A DNA stretch of 64,000 nucleotides from Octopus vulgaris. Lineage: Eukaryota. The stretch spans positions 14,880,001 through 14,944,000 of the forward strand of contig OX597842.1 in the NCBI GenBank assembly GCA_951406725.2. The letters are read 5' to 3'. The position numbers were made by a program. Positions 1-13,500 of the stretch are shown one piece after another. The number at the start of each line of letters is the position of its first letter. The first letter of the stretch is position 1.

Positions 1-1673
1 ATCATGTATATAAATCTGTGAGTGTGGGCCCGTTTCCTGATATGGTACATATGACTGAGTGATACTTGCGGGGAACAATTTAGTGAATGAATGTGTACGT
101 CTCTGTGTATGTCTACAACCATTGTCTGTCCGAAGAGCGAGGTATTGTTTACCAACTTTTCTGAATATGAGTGAGGGCATATTTATGAGATTTCGGATTT
201 ATGAGTGAATAGCAATTGATGGGAAAATGTTAGTGGAAACTTATTTTTACATACATATATGTCTGTGTGAATGTGTATGGATGTGTGGAAGGGAGTGTAT
301 CATAATGTATGTATATTTCGGCGTGTATATCATGTACGGTGCTTCCGTCGCCATAGCCACTAATTAATATCATCGACTCTTCTTCTCCTTCCACATCTAT
401 TTCATCTTCTCTTTCTCATTCTTCTTTTTATTCTTCTTCTACTTCCTCCTATTCTTCTTCTTCTTCTTCTTCTTCTTCTTCTACTTCCTCCTCTCTTTCT
501 CTTCTTTTTCTCTTTTTCTTCTTCTTCTTCTTCTTCTTCTTCTTCCTTTTATTATTATTATTATTTTGATTCTTTCTTCTATATTTTAATCTCCTTTTAT
601 TTTTAAGCTTTTCCTTATTTCATTTTACTTTCACGTCATTCAATTCTCCAAGACTTTTCCTGCTTCTTCATTATTGTAATCTTATTCTTCTTGTTCTACT
701 CATTTTGATTCCTTTTCCTTTTCTTTTTATTCTCCTCCTCCTTCATCATTTCCTTACAAACCGCAATCATCGTTCAGTTCAACATTTCAAATTAATTTCG
801 CAATACGGTTTTGCAATTTTCTTCTTTTCTTTTCTCTTTGGTCGACAATCACATCGTTTCATCATCATCAACATCAACTTTACTATCATCATAATAACCT
901 TCAGTAAGTTGAATGCACTTAAGTTTATCGTCATCAACATATTCATTTTCATCCAATTTATGAACAGCCCCAGCGTCGCAGTCGTATACCAAATATTTCT
1001 AATCTTCATAAATATCATTAACGTCGTATTCACCATCACCACTATTATAATTATCGTCATCAGTATCGTTGTCACGGATTTTACCTCCTTCATAAGAAAC
1101 AATATTAACTTCATCAACATCATCACCATCCTTCTTTACACAGCCGTTTCCTTAGATTTACCCACACCACCATGAACACCTCCACTCCCACTCTGTTCCG
1201 CCGCTTCCTCATCCTGGCATTCTCAAGATTAACATCATCTCCATTCTAGGTTCCTGCTCCACCAAATAGTAATTGTTCAACAATAATATTTTACATTCAA
1301 TCATAAAACACATCTATACATTTTCTAATCATCTAAAATTCTATTTTACAGACATTTCGTGGATAATAATATTTTACAATAATACTCATCCCTACGTTAC
1401 CTTATCAGCCAAACTTTTATTTTACAGATTTTTGCATAGAAACAATATCGACAAAATTGAATTAGGGACATTCGATGATCTGTTCAGGTTAACACATCTG
1501 TAAGTTGCAAAAGTCTTGTTGATAACATTTCACTGACGATATATTACTAAACATTTAAAATATTCCCATTTTCTATCACGTCCCGACCTTGGCTTCCTCA
1601 ATATTATCACACTTTCTCGATAGAAATAGGAGAATTTGGAGTCTGTAAATATGATTATTATTATTATTATTAA

Positions 1674-1755
<82 letters not shown>

Positions 1756-10517: not shown

Positions 10518-10567
<50 letters not shown>

Positions 10568-13500
10568 CATAATCATTATTATTATTATTATTATCATTAT
10601 TATTATCATTATCATTATTATTATTATTTTTGTTTTTATTTTTATTATCATTATTATCATTATTATTATTATTATCATTATTATCATTTTCTAGAATTTA
10701 GATAAGATTTTAAAGTATTATTTCCCGTGAAGTAGAATTCAAGTGTCTATGGACTGATACTATTAAGTATCAAATTTGTAGTAAGGTATACGGTAAAATT
10801 TGACAGCTGCTCGTTTTGCGCCATTATTATATTTTGACAACCTATATTCTTTTTTAGAAAACTGACACATCTAGTTCTTTATTCTTTGCGCTTTATAAAG
10901 TATTTATTAAATCGCTTTTTGCTATTTTTGTTTAGGGATGGAAAAGACAGAAATTCGTACAGTTTTGAAATATGAGTTCTCTCTTGGAAATACAGCCTCA
11001 CTGATAGCTCGGAATATTAATGGAAAATTTCATTCTAATGTTATTACACAGCAGACAGTATCAAATTGGTTTGCAAAATTTAGTAGTTCTGGTAATTTTG
11101 ATCTCACAAATGAGCAATGCGGTCGACCAGAAACAAAGTTGGATAATGTCGAACTGAAAGCAACCGTCGAGTCTGATCCATCTCAAAGTGCCTGTGAATT
11201 ATCGTTGTTGCTTTGTGTTAGCAAGCAATATTGACTCACCTAGTTCAAATCGTTAAAGTGAAAACGTTGGATAAGTGGCTTCCACATGAATTCAATAAAA
11301 ATCAGAAATAGCGACGTTTGGAAGCCTACATTATGCTAGTTTCTCGTCGTAAAAATGAATTATTTTTGAATCGAATTCTAACGTGATGTGAAATCGATCC
11401 AATACCTCAACTATAGAGGTTAACTACAATGGCTGGACCAAGACGAGCCACCAAAACACAGTCCAAAACGCAAAACAAGCTGATGGTGTGTGTTTGGTGG
11501 TCTGTTCCAGGTGTGATCCGTTATGATTTCATTACCCCTGGCTCATTAATCTCAGCCGAAGTACACTGCAGCCAACTGAAACAAATGATGCAGAAACGTA
11601 CAAAACAACCTTGATTAGTCAACAGATCAATCCTATTTTATAAAAAAGACATCACCGGATCACACATCGAAAAAATAACTTTGGCGAAAGTACCGGGTTT
11701 CGAGTTGGAAGCTCTCCTTCATCTACCTACTCACCCGATATTGCCCCCATTGACTACCACATCTTTCAGAATTTCACTAACTTTTTGTTAGGAAAAAGAA
11801 ATTCCGATGATTCTGTAAAATAAGCCTTCCAGGAATTTATTGTCTCTAGACTGCCAGGCTTTTACAGTTCCGGGCTGCACAGGCTACCGCTGAAATGGCA
11901 AAAGTGTATTGAAAATATGGGTGCATATATCGAAGAATAAAACTATTCCTTGTATTTACAAAAGATTGGTTTTTAATAATTTTCATACTTGACGACCTAT
12001 TATGAAAGATATATATGCTTTTCAAAACAGTTTAGAGACAAACATTAATTCCTACATATATTTTGAATATGTTTCTTAAAGTTGTGAATTGGTGTTAAGA
12101 TAAATGTTTTAATTATTCATGATTAATTTTTGCAATTTTGTCATTATATTGCTCCTGGAATATATAATATTTGTACATTCGATGAGAATGTGATGTAAAA
12201 CCAACATCCTGCACAAAACAATCTCTCGATGTCTTGTTATTCTTATAGCTTATTTTCGTCCATCTTTTGTTAATCGGTTATCACAGAAACCTTCTCTTCC
12301 CTCAGGATATCTAAGTGAGATTAATGGAAACCACTCTTGTCCAAACTATAGGCAGAAAACTCATAGAGAAATAAACATCTTTGCATTAAACATGAGCTTT
12401 TATTTGCTTAGTTTAGACAGTATATTAACAGTAGAAAACAGACTTATTAATTGTACATATTCTAACTTACAGAATACTTATTTCTTTTTTCCAGATATTT
12501 GGAAAACAACCAAATACAAAACTATGAGGATGGCGCGTTCTTATTCCTTCCTAGTATTTCTTACATGTATGTACAACAATTCTTTCTTTATTGGAAAACC
12601 AAAAGTCTTTGTAAACACATGAAAACATGTCATCAGACTAAAATCATAAAAAATGATATCATCAAATTCACAGTTGTTTAATTCAGTTGACAATAAATAG
12701 CAATGTTTTGGCTTTAATTTTAATGTGGCACCATGAATATTTCTGAGTATTGTGTTTTGCCATTGCAACGTCAGTGTTCAAACAACATGAAGGTTGGTTT
12801 GATATAGTTTCATCCATGTTCGGAAATACGAGCTGTATTCAAAAGGCGTCCAATATTTGGGTACAAAAGTATCCAACCTTTGTCCATTTCATAGATTTTA
12901 TTTAATCTTCTTCAAAATACTCCTCTTGGGATTTCACTCACAAGTTTTGTCATTGTTTCTATCATTTCTGGAACACCTTCTTGAGAGTGTTATGCAGCTC
13001 TGCTGTCCTCTCTCCGCTCGGATCGCTTCTCCTTCAGCGTCGTTTTTACTTTTGGAAAGAGTCAGAAGTCACATGGCGCCATGTGGGGAGAGTTGGGAGC
13101 CTATCGAAAAAGGGGTCTGTTCCTTTTGATCATGAAAGCTTGAATTACGAAGTGCATTCAAAATGTATATGAATTTATGGTTTCGCTGATATTCTCTGCA
13201 TGCACAAATCCTCCGTTAAAATATAATACACTGATCCTCTGCTTATTTCAACTTCGTGAATAATTCCTTGGACTGTTACATTACGATCTTCGATGACTAA
13301 TTACCGAAGCTTCTCAATCAGCTCCTCATTTCGCCTTCTTTATGGCCTGCCTCAGCGTGCTTCACTCGCCACTGAGGTTCGGCCATGTTTGAAGCAGTTG
13401 TACCACTCTTTGTTCTACCTTTTGCCCATGGCATCATTAATAAGAGCCAGCCGAATCTTCTCGTTGGTGTCAGGTTGAGTAACACTCAGCCTTCTTCAAA

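What the first reader, a model, noticed from the sequence alone, without database searches (positions are those of the whole stretch)
1428..12566. Modular, diversifying LRR exon cassette in an adhesion GPCR: candidate LRR-shuffling receptor system
Seen: eight symmetric 72-nt phase-2 exons each encode exactly one LRR, so any can be added, skipped or swapped in frame. Seven sit in young tandem units whose introns are nearly identical, yet exon differences cluster in the LxxLxLxxN x-positions: F-L-H-R-N, T-L-N-G-N, F-L-D-A-N, Y-L-S-G-N, plus H/Y just before the next L. Exons 3889 vs 5143 differ at 5 nt and 5143 vs 6373 at 4 nt, all in amino-acid-changing codons. Established: these x residues form the concave ligand-binding face of LRR solenoids. 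Concave-face hypervariability with one-LRR modules characterises lamprey VLRs and the exon-shuffled LRR-ROCO genes of Ectocarpus. Inference: this may be an undescribed cephalopod immune/sensory receptor whose specificity is varied by exon duplication, conversion and/or skipping.
Basis: partly seen in the sequence, partly recalled or inferred. Interest (0 to 1): 0.88.

Follow-up and report, generated by a model that had tools for sequence, protein, structure and literature searches.

The report
Amplified LRR exon in octopus receptor
One leucine-rich-repeat exon of an octopus adhesion GPCR gene has recently been copied seven times in tandem, and the older copies differ mainly at ligand-facing residues; this is ordinary germline gene evolution, with no sign of an antibody-like shuffling system.

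Summary
Seven 72-nt phase-2 exons, each encoding one 24-residue LRR, have intact AG/GTAAGT sites. They sit in tandem units of 2461 bp and then about 1250 bp. An eighth LRR exon lies at 12495-12566.

The gene is a paralogue of the Octopus LRR adhesion GPCR expansion: 26 of 27 hits are Octopus proteins. That expansion is already in print (PMC6408891).

Exon differences cluster in the xxLxLxx codons:
- 7 of 18 concave-codon bases vary, against 51 of 811 intron columns (p=1e-4).
- Parsimony gives 11 replacement changes against 3.4 expected.

Numbers are small, and three exons are identical. The concave bias is not general in the family: 30 of 86 differences, p=0.73.

Best reading: germline exon amplification by unequal crossing-over, followed by probable positive selection on the binding face.

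The array lacks VLR-like features: every module is a normal exon and there is no cassette bank. Alternative splicing, expression and copy-number polymorphism could not be tested. No annotated protein contains these exons.

The parts
1..1427 (+). Intron upstream of the first visible A exon; a copy of 2461-3888, so the array continues beyond the window start
   Evidence: blastn 2-1427 vs 2461-3888, 94.9% over 1434 columns
1428..1499 (+). LRR exon A1 (FLHRNNIDKIELGTFDDLFRLTH), 72 nt, phase 2-2
   Evidence: LRR_8 14.7 bits, below cut-off for a single repeat
2036..2255 (+). Inverted copy of the intron segment that lies upstream of every A exon. It ends 18 nt before exon B's acceptor.
   Evidence: 12 inverted pairs, 84-90% complementary. 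RNA fold of 2030-3460 gives one long stem that loops out exon B.
2274..2345 (+). LRR exon B (SLSSNDIKELIPDTFRNLFSLTS), 72 nt, AG acceptor but TT where the donor GT should be. Probably dead or skipped.
   Evidence: sequence; LRR_8/LRR_1 weak hits; tblastn to LRRs of P0031/P0033
3889..3960 (+). LRR exon A2 (TLNGN...LTRLTY)
5143..5214 (+). LRR exon A3 (FLDAN...LTRLTH); A2's unit (3889-5142) is the first short unit, A3's the second
6373..6444 (+). LRR exon A4 (YLSGN...)
7635..7706 (+). LRR exon A5, identical to A4
8877..8948 (+). LRR exon A6, identical to A4
10130..10201 (+). LRR exon A7 (YLSGN...LTRLTY), 1 nt from A4. Its acceptor tract carries 2 changes.
4111..4361 (.). (TAT)n microsatellite, one per unit. 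The others are at 1650-1893, 5365-5591, 6595-6854, 7857-8095, 9099-9349 and 10352-10688. Their lengths differ between units.
   Evidence: Tandem Repeats Finder
10911..11950 (+). Degenerate mariner/Mos1-type transposon remnant in the intron between A7 and the last LRR exon
   Evidence: HTH_48 E=4.5e-12 for 10911-11231. The 3' extent was read from the sequence.
12495..12566 (+). Last LRR exon (YLENNQIQNYEDGAFLFLPSISY), 72 nt, phase 2-2
   Evidence: sequence; 88% to P0005
18764..18932 (+). LRRCT (cysteine cap) exon
   Evidence: tblastn 71% to P0014 and 88% to P0029; splice sites read
21584..24672 (+). Two exons (21584-21675 and 24489-24672) encoding a Ly6/uPAR-like cysteine-rich module
   Evidence: tblastn; UPAR_LY6_2 E=0.05, below cut-off; O. 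sinensis model P0029 is named ly6/PLAUR-like
29869..33438 (+). Two exons (29869-29984 and 33269-33438) homologous to the hormone-receptor-motif region of the family
   Evidence: tblastn 96/95% to P0002. Precomputed PF02793 on paralogue P0006. Pfam did not call HRM on the single exons.
34749..43619 (+). Four GAIN-domain exons (34749-34980, 35552-35723, 41913-42065, 43491-43619)
   Evidence: PF26588 is precomputed on the homologues. Pfam did not call it on the three single exons tested, GAIN1, GAIN2 and GAIN3; GAIN4 gave no family either.
44358..44504 (+). GPS exon with CSCDHL/TSFALL (autoproteolysis site and tethered-agonist start)
   Evidence: PF01825 GPS E=3.6e-16, 59.9 bits, cut-off 22.5
45896..45998 (+). 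First transmembrane-helix exon. No further 7TM exon was found up to 64000.
   Evidence: tblastn 100% to P0007 and 87% to P0020. No further 7TM exon matched at E<1 downstream; the few other matches there lie in TE or repeat sequence.

Best explanation
The region is the LRR-coding part of a paralogue of the octopus-specific LRR adhesion GPCR family. The architecture is LRRs, LRRCT, a Ly6-like module, a hormone-receptor motif, GAIN/GPS and a 7TM.

Each LRR is one 72-nt phase-2 exon. An ancestral 2.46-kb unit carrying two LRR exons (A and B) was duplicated. A 1.25-kb derivative that had lost exon B through two deletions was then amplified by unequal crossing-over to five or six copies. The likely substrates are the unit's own homology and its (TAT)n tract.

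Symmetric exons keep the frame, so each new copy adds one turn to the LRR solenoid. In the older copies, replacement changes accumulated in the x5, x7, x8 and x3 codons of LxxLxLxxN. These are the beta-strand residues that line the concave binding face. They changed faster than the neutral intron rate, which points to positive selection re-tuning ligand contact. The youngest three or four copies are too recent to differ.

Shown here: the exon anatomy, the duplication history, the gene identity and the excess of changes.

Inferred: that selection rather than conversion caused the excess, that the exons are all spliced in, and that the receptor signals through GPS cleavage and the tethered agonist as other adhesion GPCRs do.

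This is germline evolution of one receptor gene. It is not a somatic diversification system.
For: Exon anatomy:
- Seven intact, same-strand, frame-compatible exons.
- Downstream exons from LRRCT to TM1 are all open, with consistent AG/GT sites and junction codons read exon by exon.
- GPS motif E=3.6e-16.

Gene identity:
- Family membership: 27 hits among 159 candidates, 26 named Octopus.
- Paralogue P0014 carries LRR_8, GPS and 7tm_2, and P0021 adds a Death domain.
- Paralogues carry 2 to 13 parsed LRRs of 24 residues, so repeat number varies in the family.

Duplication history:
- Unit lengths are 2461, 1254, 1230, 1262, 1242 and 1253 bp.
- The short unit equals long-unit segments 1428-1871 + 2701-2792 + 3223-3888.
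- Short units differ by 0.2-1.6%.
- Copies carry private substitutions and different microsatellite lengths, so they are distinct copies.

Excess of changes:
- Variable columns: exon 10 of 72 against intron 51 of 811 (p=0.021).
- Concave codons 7 of 18 against the rest of the exon 3 of 54 (p=0.0016), and against intron (p=1e-4).
- The top 15-nt window of the whole alignment is exon nt 2-16 (permutation p=0.007).
- Parsimony gives 11 replacement changes against 3.4 expected from the intron rate (p=8e-4).
- For 5143 vs 6373, pN/intron = 8.5.

Same bias in two annotated paralogues: in the P0005 repeat pair 6 of 7 differences are at concave x positions (p=5e-5), and in the P0020 pair 2 of 2.
Against: The sample is small. 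There are four distinct exon sequences and 12 inferred changes, of which only 1 is synonymous, and the pairwise tests are not independent.

The rest of the exon varies at the intron rate (3 of 54 against 51 of 811, p=1.0). Purifying selection, the usual sign of a used exon, is therefore not visible.

The concave bias is not a general property of the family. Over 16 similar within-protein repeat pairs, 30 of 86 non-scaffold differences are concave against an expected 6/16 (p=0.73). In P0031 the convex positions vary instead.

No protein in the 5.8-billion set shares words with the A-exon reading frame: 5 candidates, none with E<=10. No annotated model therefore contains these exons.

The most similar O. 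sinensis models (P0029, P0002) are short fragments that end in the same intron read-through as the window's frames. Exon B has a dead donor. No 7TM exon beyond TM1 lies in the remaining 18 kb, which holds a LINE and a Helitron.

Mosaic identity to different paralogues shows that exchange between paralogues is plausible in this family.
Confidence: 0.55

Rival explanations
1. Neutral by-product. A 1.25-kb intronic tandem repeat that happens to carry an LRR exon was amplified in a decaying or fragmentary paralogue. The exons are not all used, if any are. The cluster of differences comes from short conversion tracts from other LRR exons or from chance.
For: - The rest of the exon evolves at the intron rate.
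- Exon B has a TT donor.
- No annotated protein contains the A exon.
- The closest O. sinensis models are fragments.
- There is no 7TM beyond TM1 in 18 kb, which carries LINE and Helitron insertions.
- Mosaic identity to paralogues suggests conversion occurs in the family.
- There is no general concave bias in the family.
Against: All 11 exons from the last LRR exon to TM1 are open, with good splice sites.

By my reconstruction from the alignment columns, eight changes fall in 9 bases (three codons), two private to each of the four exon types. These are hard to derive from one donor. Neither exon B nor the last LRR exon in the window carries any complete variant stretch (my reading of the sequences).

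Conversion tracts confined to 16 nt at an exon edge, next to non-homologous intron, are unlikely. This last point is inference.
Confidence: 0.2
2. RNA-level diversification. The symmetric exons are alternative cassettes, so one gene gives isoforms with different LRR number or identity. Choice may be guided by competing pairing between the single inverted intron segment and its direct copies upstream of each A exon.
For: - Any subset of the exons keeps the frame.
- One 220-nt inverted arm (2036-2255) is 84-90% complementary to a segment upstream of every A exon, and it folds into one long stem.
- LRR exon modularity is linked to alternative splicing in NLRP3 and Slit (PMC6642158, passages) and in brown-alga ROCO genes (PMC11378527, listing and abstract start only).
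Against: There are no transcript data.

The multiple 'selector' copies follow automatically from tandem duplication, and the arms are no better conserved than the surrounding intron.

The strong, identical splice sites fit constitutive use.

No annotated isoforms contain these exons.
Confidence: 0.12
3. Assembly or haplotype artefact. The copy number of the youngest units is inflated, or mixed from two haplotypes, by the assembler.
For: Three exons are identical. The flanks compared for units 7635 and 8877 show 0 differences in 814 columns.
Against: Whole units differ by 2-16 substitutions per about 1000 nt. Microsatellite lengths differ between units. Errors would not fall in particular codons. 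The diverged copies (1428, 3889, 5143) are the ones that carry the signal.
Confidence: 0.08
4. A VLR-like somatic assembly system, in which LRR cassettes are copied into an incomplete germline gene in individual cells.
For: Only the resemblance: one-LRR modules that differ at concave positions.
Against: Every module has AG and GT sites at the module boundary and lies in order on the coding strand, between other exons of the same gene.

No partial cassettes or minus-strand copies were found.

The window's large open frames are a LINE, a Helitron and a mariner remnant, with no deaminase-like frame among those scanned.
Confidence: 0.02

Closest known systems
Octopus-specific adhesion GPCR expansion ('group 3' of Ritschard et al. 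2019, PMC6408891; NCBI models 'adhesion G-protein coupled receptor G6-like')
   Same: Exon-by-exon identity of 44-100% to annotated Octopus paralogues. [quoted passage not shown] The paper's passages report LRR in 5 of 22 sequences, one Death domain, co-localised genes and positive selection.
   Different: No annotated member matches over all exons, and none contains the A-type exon sequence. None of the 10 proteins parsed has more than two near-identical adjacent LRRs. The paper does not discuss LRR exon structure in the passages I read. Its supplementary tables were closed, so identity with 'group 3' is inferred.
Ectocarpus LRR-ROCO genes (Zambounis et al. 2012, PMC3341825)
   Same: One LRR per 72-nt, 24-residue exon, frame-neutral exons, exon duplication or shuffling, and diversifying selection on exposed residues (passages read).
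   Different: A different kingdom and effector (ROC-COR GTPase, cytoplasmic). Here there is a single exon type amplified in place in one animal surface receptor, and no evidence of exchange of exons between loci.
Exon-modular LRR genes of animals (Slit, NLR family; Hoss et al. 2019, PMC6642158). From recall only: the LGR and glycoprotein-hormone receptors.
   Same: Short repetitive LRR exons that can be added or skipped in frame. Alternative use of LRR exons is documented for NLRP3 (passages read).
   Different: Those arrays are old and their repeats diverged. Here the copies are 0-5% apart, introns included.
Vertebrate ADGRA2/3 (GPR124/125) and ADGRG2/G6
   Same: ADGRA: an N-terminal LRR + LRRCT, then hormone-receptor motif, GAIN and 7TM (architecture recalled; PF26588 'ADGRA2/3 GAIN' is precomputed on homologues). 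ADGRG: the closest solved sequences for GAIN-7TM of paralogue P0014 are ADGRG2 at E=2.9e-54 and ADGRG6 at 7.1e-48.
   Different: A Ly6-like module stands where ADGRA has an Ig domain. There is an LRR ectodomain where ADGRG6 has CUB/PTX (recalled). This is a lineage-specific domain combination.
Lamprey variable lymphocyte receptors
   Same: 24-residue LRR modules whose variable residues lie on the concave face. VLR chains are weak sequence matches to the family's LRRs (E about 1e-9).
   Different: No incomplete germline gene, no cassette banks and normal splice sites. Somatic assembly is untested and not suggested by anything here.

Membership tests
Adhesion GPCR (class B2) | GAIN domain ending in a GPS autoproteolysis motif | tested here: met
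   Exon 44358-44504: PF01825 GPS E=3.6e-16, 59.9 bits against cut-off 22.5, with CSCDHL/TSF. GAIN exons are 79-95% identical to family members.
Adhesion GPCR (class B2) | Secretin-like seven-transmembrane domain directly after the GPS | tested here: inconclusive
   Only the TM1 exon (45896-45998) is in the window, and no other 7TM exon was found up to 64000. Paralogues P0014 and P0021 carry 7tm_2 at E=3.6e-30 and 1.1e-23.
Octopus-specific adhesion GPCR expansion (PMC6408891, group 3) | Closest relatives are octopus paralogues with GPS/7TM, some with LRRs, one with a Death domain | tested here: met
   26 of 27 hits are named Octopus. Domains. That these are the paper's group 3 is inferred from its text; the supplementary tables were closed.
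ADGRA subfamily (GPR124/125) | LRR + LRRCT + Ig + hormone-receptor motif + GAIN + 7TM, with an ADGRA-type 7TM | tested here: not met
   LRR and LRRCT are present. A Ly6-like module stands in place of Ig. The 7TM/GAIN of paralogue P0014 is closest to ADGRG2/G6 among solved chains, and no ADGRA chain is among the 60 shown of 153.
Variable lymphocyte receptor system | Incomplete germline gene plus flanking banks of LRR cassettes without splice signals | tested here: not met
   All 7 A modules have AG...GTAAGT at the module edges and lie collinear with the downstream exons. No extra or minus-strand LRR pieces were found.
Variable lymphocyte receptor system | Somatic, deaminase-dependent assembly in lymphocyte-like cells | not testable with these tools
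   This needs germline-versus-somatic long reads.
Dscam-type alternative exon cluster | Tandem array of homologous exons of equal length | tested here: met
   Seven 72-nt exons, 89-100% identical.
Dscam-type alternative exon cluster | Only one variant per transcript, set by one docking site pairing with one of many selector sequences | tested here: inconclusive
   One inverted arm against 7 direct copies exists. It is explained by the duplication itself. The exons are frame-neutral, so nothing enforces exclusivity. There are no RNA data.
Exon-shuffled LRR receptors (Ectocarpus ROCO type) | One LRR per 72-nt frame-neutral exon, with excess replacement change at exposed residues | tested here: met
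   (small sample). Compare PMC3341825. The defining ROC-COR domains are absent, so this is an analogue and not a member.

The most novel reading that the evidence does not exclude
The array is a working diversification device at the RNA level. One octopus adhesion GPCR gene would produce receptors with different numbers and kinds of LRRs by choosing among frame-neutral exons. The single inverted intron arm (2036-2255) would pair competitively with one of the seven direct copies, looping out a variable block of exons. Array length would also be polymorphic between individuals. This would be a Dscam-like logic applied to an LRR solenoid in a cephalopod surface receptor.
Probability: 0.07. Interest if true: 0.8.

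Novelty: new member of a known kind. Interest (0 to 1): 0.4.

Why it matters
The locus shows an LRR ectodomain growing one exon at a time, with the neutral yardstick (the co-duplicated introns) still attached. That allows an unusually direct test of selection on the binding face.

It belongs to a receptor family that expanded only in octopuses. The published expression for that family is in the arm nerve cord, suckers and skin (PMC6408891), and no ligand for it came up in the passages I read. Rapid re-tuning of the LRR face would hint at fast-changing ligands.

It does not open a new class of mechanism. Modular LRR exons, exon amplification and positive selection on xxLxLxx residues are all known.

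Tried and rejected
- Pfam on single exons. The HRM and GAIN models did not fire on the fragments. Only GPS passed the cut-off, and single LRR exons scored 14.6-19.1 bits against 27. Domain calls for those exons therefore rest on homologues.
- Search with one LRR exon. The unaltered 41-residue reading frame that contains the exon found nothing. The tool itself calls that weak evidence.
- TE origin for the repeat unit. No copy of the unit occurs in 12600-64000, and there is no Rfam family anywhere in the window. The intron is therefore not an obvious high-copy element or RNA gene.
- Further LRR exons or cassettes. None turned up by motif scan or tblastn beyond the nine listed.
- 7TM exons after TM1. 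None were found.
- Family-wide concave hypervariability. This is rejected as a general rule (p=0.73).
- A single conversion donor inside the window for the variant 5' stretches. Neither exon B nor the last LRR exon carries a complete variant. This comparison was by eye only.
- Not done: a joined (spliced) protein model was neither built, folded nor searched. Exons were handled one at a time and junction codons were read from the sequence.
- Not used: structure prediction, complex prediction, the atlas search and the representative search. None could bear on the open questions without a joined model.
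Full report
WHAT IS THERE

The window has no N. A scan of both strands with the 72-nt exon at 1428 finds seven copies, all on the + strand, at 1428, 3889, 5143, 6373, 7635, 8877 and 10130. Six are preceded by tattttacag and one by tatgttacag. 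All are followed by gtaagttg.

Each exon begins with the third base of a codon and ends with CT, which joins the next exon's A to give Leu. The exons are therefore symmetric (phase 2-2), and any number of them keeps the frame.

Each encodes one 24-residue LRR: x-L-x-x-N-N-I-D-K-I-E-L-G-T-F-D-D-L-(F/T)-R-L-T-(H/Y)-L. An eighth 72-nt LRR exon of another type lies at 12495-12566. A ninth, type B, lies at 2274-2345. It has a good acceptor, but TT stands where the donor GT should be.

UNIT STRUCTURE AND HISTORY

Exon-to-exon distances are 2461, 1254, 1230, 1262, 1242 and 1253 bp. The long unit (1428-3888) holds:
- exon A,
- a (TAT)n tract,
- a 220-nt inverted copy of an intron segment (2036-2255),
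- exon B,
- a (TCT)n tract,
- about 660 nt of intron that leads into the next A exon.

Window 2-1427 is 94.9% identical to 2461-3888, so the array starts before the window.

The short unit equals long-unit segments 1428-1871, 2701-2792 and 3223-3888. It is a deletion derivative that lost exon B and the (TCT)n region, and was then amplified. Short units differ from each other by 0.2-1.6% over about 1000 aligned bases outside the microsatellite. Their microsatellites differ in length, 227-337 nt. They are distinct copies, not one copy printed several times.

The unit occurs nowhere else in the window.

WHAT GENE

Each downstream exon was searched on its own. I did not build, search or fold a joined (spliced) model. 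Junction codons were read from the DNA.

The first GAIN exon (34751-34978) finds 27 proteins among 159 candidates. Of these, 26 are named Octopus (vulgaris, sinensis, bimaculoides), mostly 'adhesion G-protein coupled receptor G6-like', at 65-95% identity.

tblastn of these proteins against the window maps, in order and on the + strand:
- LRRCT (18764-18932),
- two Ly6/uPAR-like exons (21584-21675 and 24489-24672),
- two hormone-receptor-motif exons (29869-29984 and 33269-33438),
- four GAIN exons,
- the GPS exon (44358-44504),
- the first transmembrane exon (45896-45998).

All have AG/GT sites and frame-compatible junctions. The GPS exon passes Pfam's cut-off (E=3.6e-16). Single LRR exons hit LRR_8 below the cut-off, as expected for one repeat. 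HRM and GAIN models did not fire on single exons.

Paralogue P0014 carries LRR_8, GPS and 7tm_2. P0021 carries these plus a Death domain. The partial model P0031 carries LRRs only. The GAIN-7TM part of P0014 is closest to ADGRG2 and ADGRG6 among solved chains.

After TM1 the window holds a LINE (endonuclease and reverse transcriptase, minus strand, 46.6-50.0 kb) and a Helitron (55.9-58.9 kb). No further 7TM exon is present.

This family is already described. Ritschard et al. 2019 (PMC6408891, passages read) report an octopus-specific adhesion GPCR expansion with:
- co-localised genes and signatures of positive selection,
- expression in axial nerve cord, suckers and skin.

THE DIVERSIFICATION CLAIM

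I aligned 655 nt upstream, the exon and 160 nt downstream for all seven copies (891 columns). Ten of 72 exon columns vary (nt 2, 3, 8, 9, 11, 12, 16, 56, 57, 68), against 51 of 811 ungapped intron columns (p=0.021).

I fixed in advance the codons of x2, x3, x5, x7, x8 and x10 of LxxLxLxxNx, the residues of the concave sheet according to textbook LRR structure. In these codons:
- 7 of 18 bases vary, against 3 of 54 in the rest of the exon (p=0.0016) and against the introns (p=1e-4).
- The densest 15-nt window in the whole alignment is exon nt 2-16 (7 variable columns). A permutation of variable columns reaches 7 in 0.7% of 5000 trials.

By parsimony there are 11 replacement and 1 silent change, where the intron rate predicts 3.4 replacements (p=8e-4). 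The ratio of pN to intron divergence is 1.3-8.5, depending on the pair.

By my reconstruction from the alignment columns, each of the four exon types (FLHRN, TLNGN, FLDAN, YLSGN) has two private changes within the same three codons. The signal is real in this sequence.

LIMITS OF THAT SIGNAL

- Only four distinct exons carry it. Three exons are identical and a fourth differs by one base.
- The rest of the exon varies at the intron rate (p=1.0), so purifying selection is not visible.
- The bias is not general in the family. I parsed 47 LRR units from 10 annotated proteins. In 16 similar within-protein pairs, 30 of 86 non-scaffold differences are at concave positions, where 6/16 is expected (p=0.73). 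In P0031 the convex positions vary instead. The bias does recur in two pairs: P0005 (6 of 7, p=5e-5) and P0020 (2 of 2).
- No protein in the large set shares words with the A-exon reading frame (5 candidates, none scoring), so no annotated model includes these exons.
- No annotated protein is a full match. Best identities are mosaic: P0007 reaches 100% in three exons but 88% in two others, and P0002 reaches 92-96%. The closest O. sinensis models are short fragments ending in the same intron read-through as the window's frames.

These points keep a neutral or pseudogene reading alive.

MECHANISM

Most likely (0.55) this is germline amplification of one LRR exon by unequal crossing-over. The older copies then underwent positive selection on the binding face. 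The result would be a longer and re-tuned solenoid on an adhesion GPCR that presumably signals through GPS cleavage and its tethered agonist.

Rivals:
- a neutral tandem repeat in a decaying paralogue (0.2),
- alternative-splicing cassettes (0.12),
- assembly inflation of the youngest copies (0.08),
- VLR-like somatic assembly (0.02).

The VLR-type reading fails on its testable features. Modules are ordinary exons with splice sites, collinear with the gene, and there is no cassette bank on either strand.

A STRUCTURAL ODDITY

The single inverted arm 2036-2255 is 84-90% complementary to a segment upstream of every A exon. In an RNA fold of 2030-3460 it forms one long stem that loops out exon B and ends 18 nt from its acceptor.

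One arm facing many copies is the topology of docking and selector sites in Dscam exon 6 (recalled). Here it follows automatically from the duplication, so it is a lead and not evidence.

COMPARISON AND NOVELTY

One-LRR 72-nt exons with diversifying selection are described for Ectocarpus ROCO genes, with 222 exons of 72 nt (PMC3341825, passages). Exon-modular LRRs and their alternative use are described for NLR and Slit genes (PMC6642158, passages).

Two full-text searches found no paper on LRR exon arrays in cephalopod receptors: octopus / adhesion GPCR / leucine-rich repeat / expansion, and cephalopod / leucine-rich repeat / tandem exon duplication. A 2026 review of immune diversification mentions cephalopods only for haematopoiesis in the passages shown (PMC13428168).

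The locus is thus a new, unusually young example of a known evolutionary mode in a known family.

UNCHECKED

- Transcripts and raw reads.
- The supplementary tables of PMC6408891.

Noticed in passing
window 2036-2255 against 773-992, 3234-3453, 4534-4704, 5764-5934, 7026-7196, 8268-8438 and 9521-9691: One inverted intron arm is 84-90% complementary to a segment upstream of every A exon. In pre-mRNA it would form a duplex of about 220 bp that loops out exon B and could pair with any one of the copies. Such a duplex might act as a splicing modulator, an ADAR substrate or a circularisation signal.
   Followed up: partly
window 2274-2345: A ninth 72-nt LRR exon of a second type (B). It resembles the NLGGN-type repeats of paralogues. 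Its donor reads TT instead of GT and its presumed branch-point region lies inside the inverted arm, so it is probably skipped.
   Followed up: partly
window exons 29869-45998 against P0001-P0034: Identity to annotated Octopus paralogues is mosaic from exon to exon. For example, P0007 reaches 100% in three exons but 88% in two others, and P0009 is best in GAIN2 and GAIN3. This suggests exon-scale exchange between paralogues, or the lack of an annotated orthologue.
   Followed up: partly
window 24489-24704 and 35552-35783: Two short O. sinensis gene models (P0029, 151 aa; P0002, 265 aa) end in the same intron read-through peptides as the window's open frames. The nearest annotated locus is therefore split into fragments rather than modelled as one receptor.
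   Followed up: no
window 21584-24672: A Ly6/uPAR-like cysteine module (ending CCTGNLCN) sits between LRRCT and the hormone-receptor motif. To my knowledge this is an unusual partner domain for an adhesion GPCR. Some paralogues add one to three further modules before the hormone-receptor motif (P0006, P0021, P0031).
   Followed up: partly
window 10911-11950, 46618-50018 (minus strand) and 55914-58933: Transposon remnants: a mariner-type HTH_48 fragment in the array's last intron, a LINE with endonuclease and reverse transcriptase right after the TM1 exon, and a Helitron with Rep and PIF1 helicase domains.
   Followed up: yes
window 38437-41427: Open frames with a zinc-knuckle-like CX2CX4HX4C stretch and an integrase-like region suggest an LTR-retroelement remnant in the GAIN2-GAIN3 intron. 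Pfam gave no hit for the two frames tested.
   Followed up: partly
window 378-545, 2838-3006 and seven (TAT)n tracts: Long trinucleotide microsatellites lie inside every repeat unit, with lengths that differ between units. They are likely substrates for slippage and unequal exchange.
   Followed up: partly
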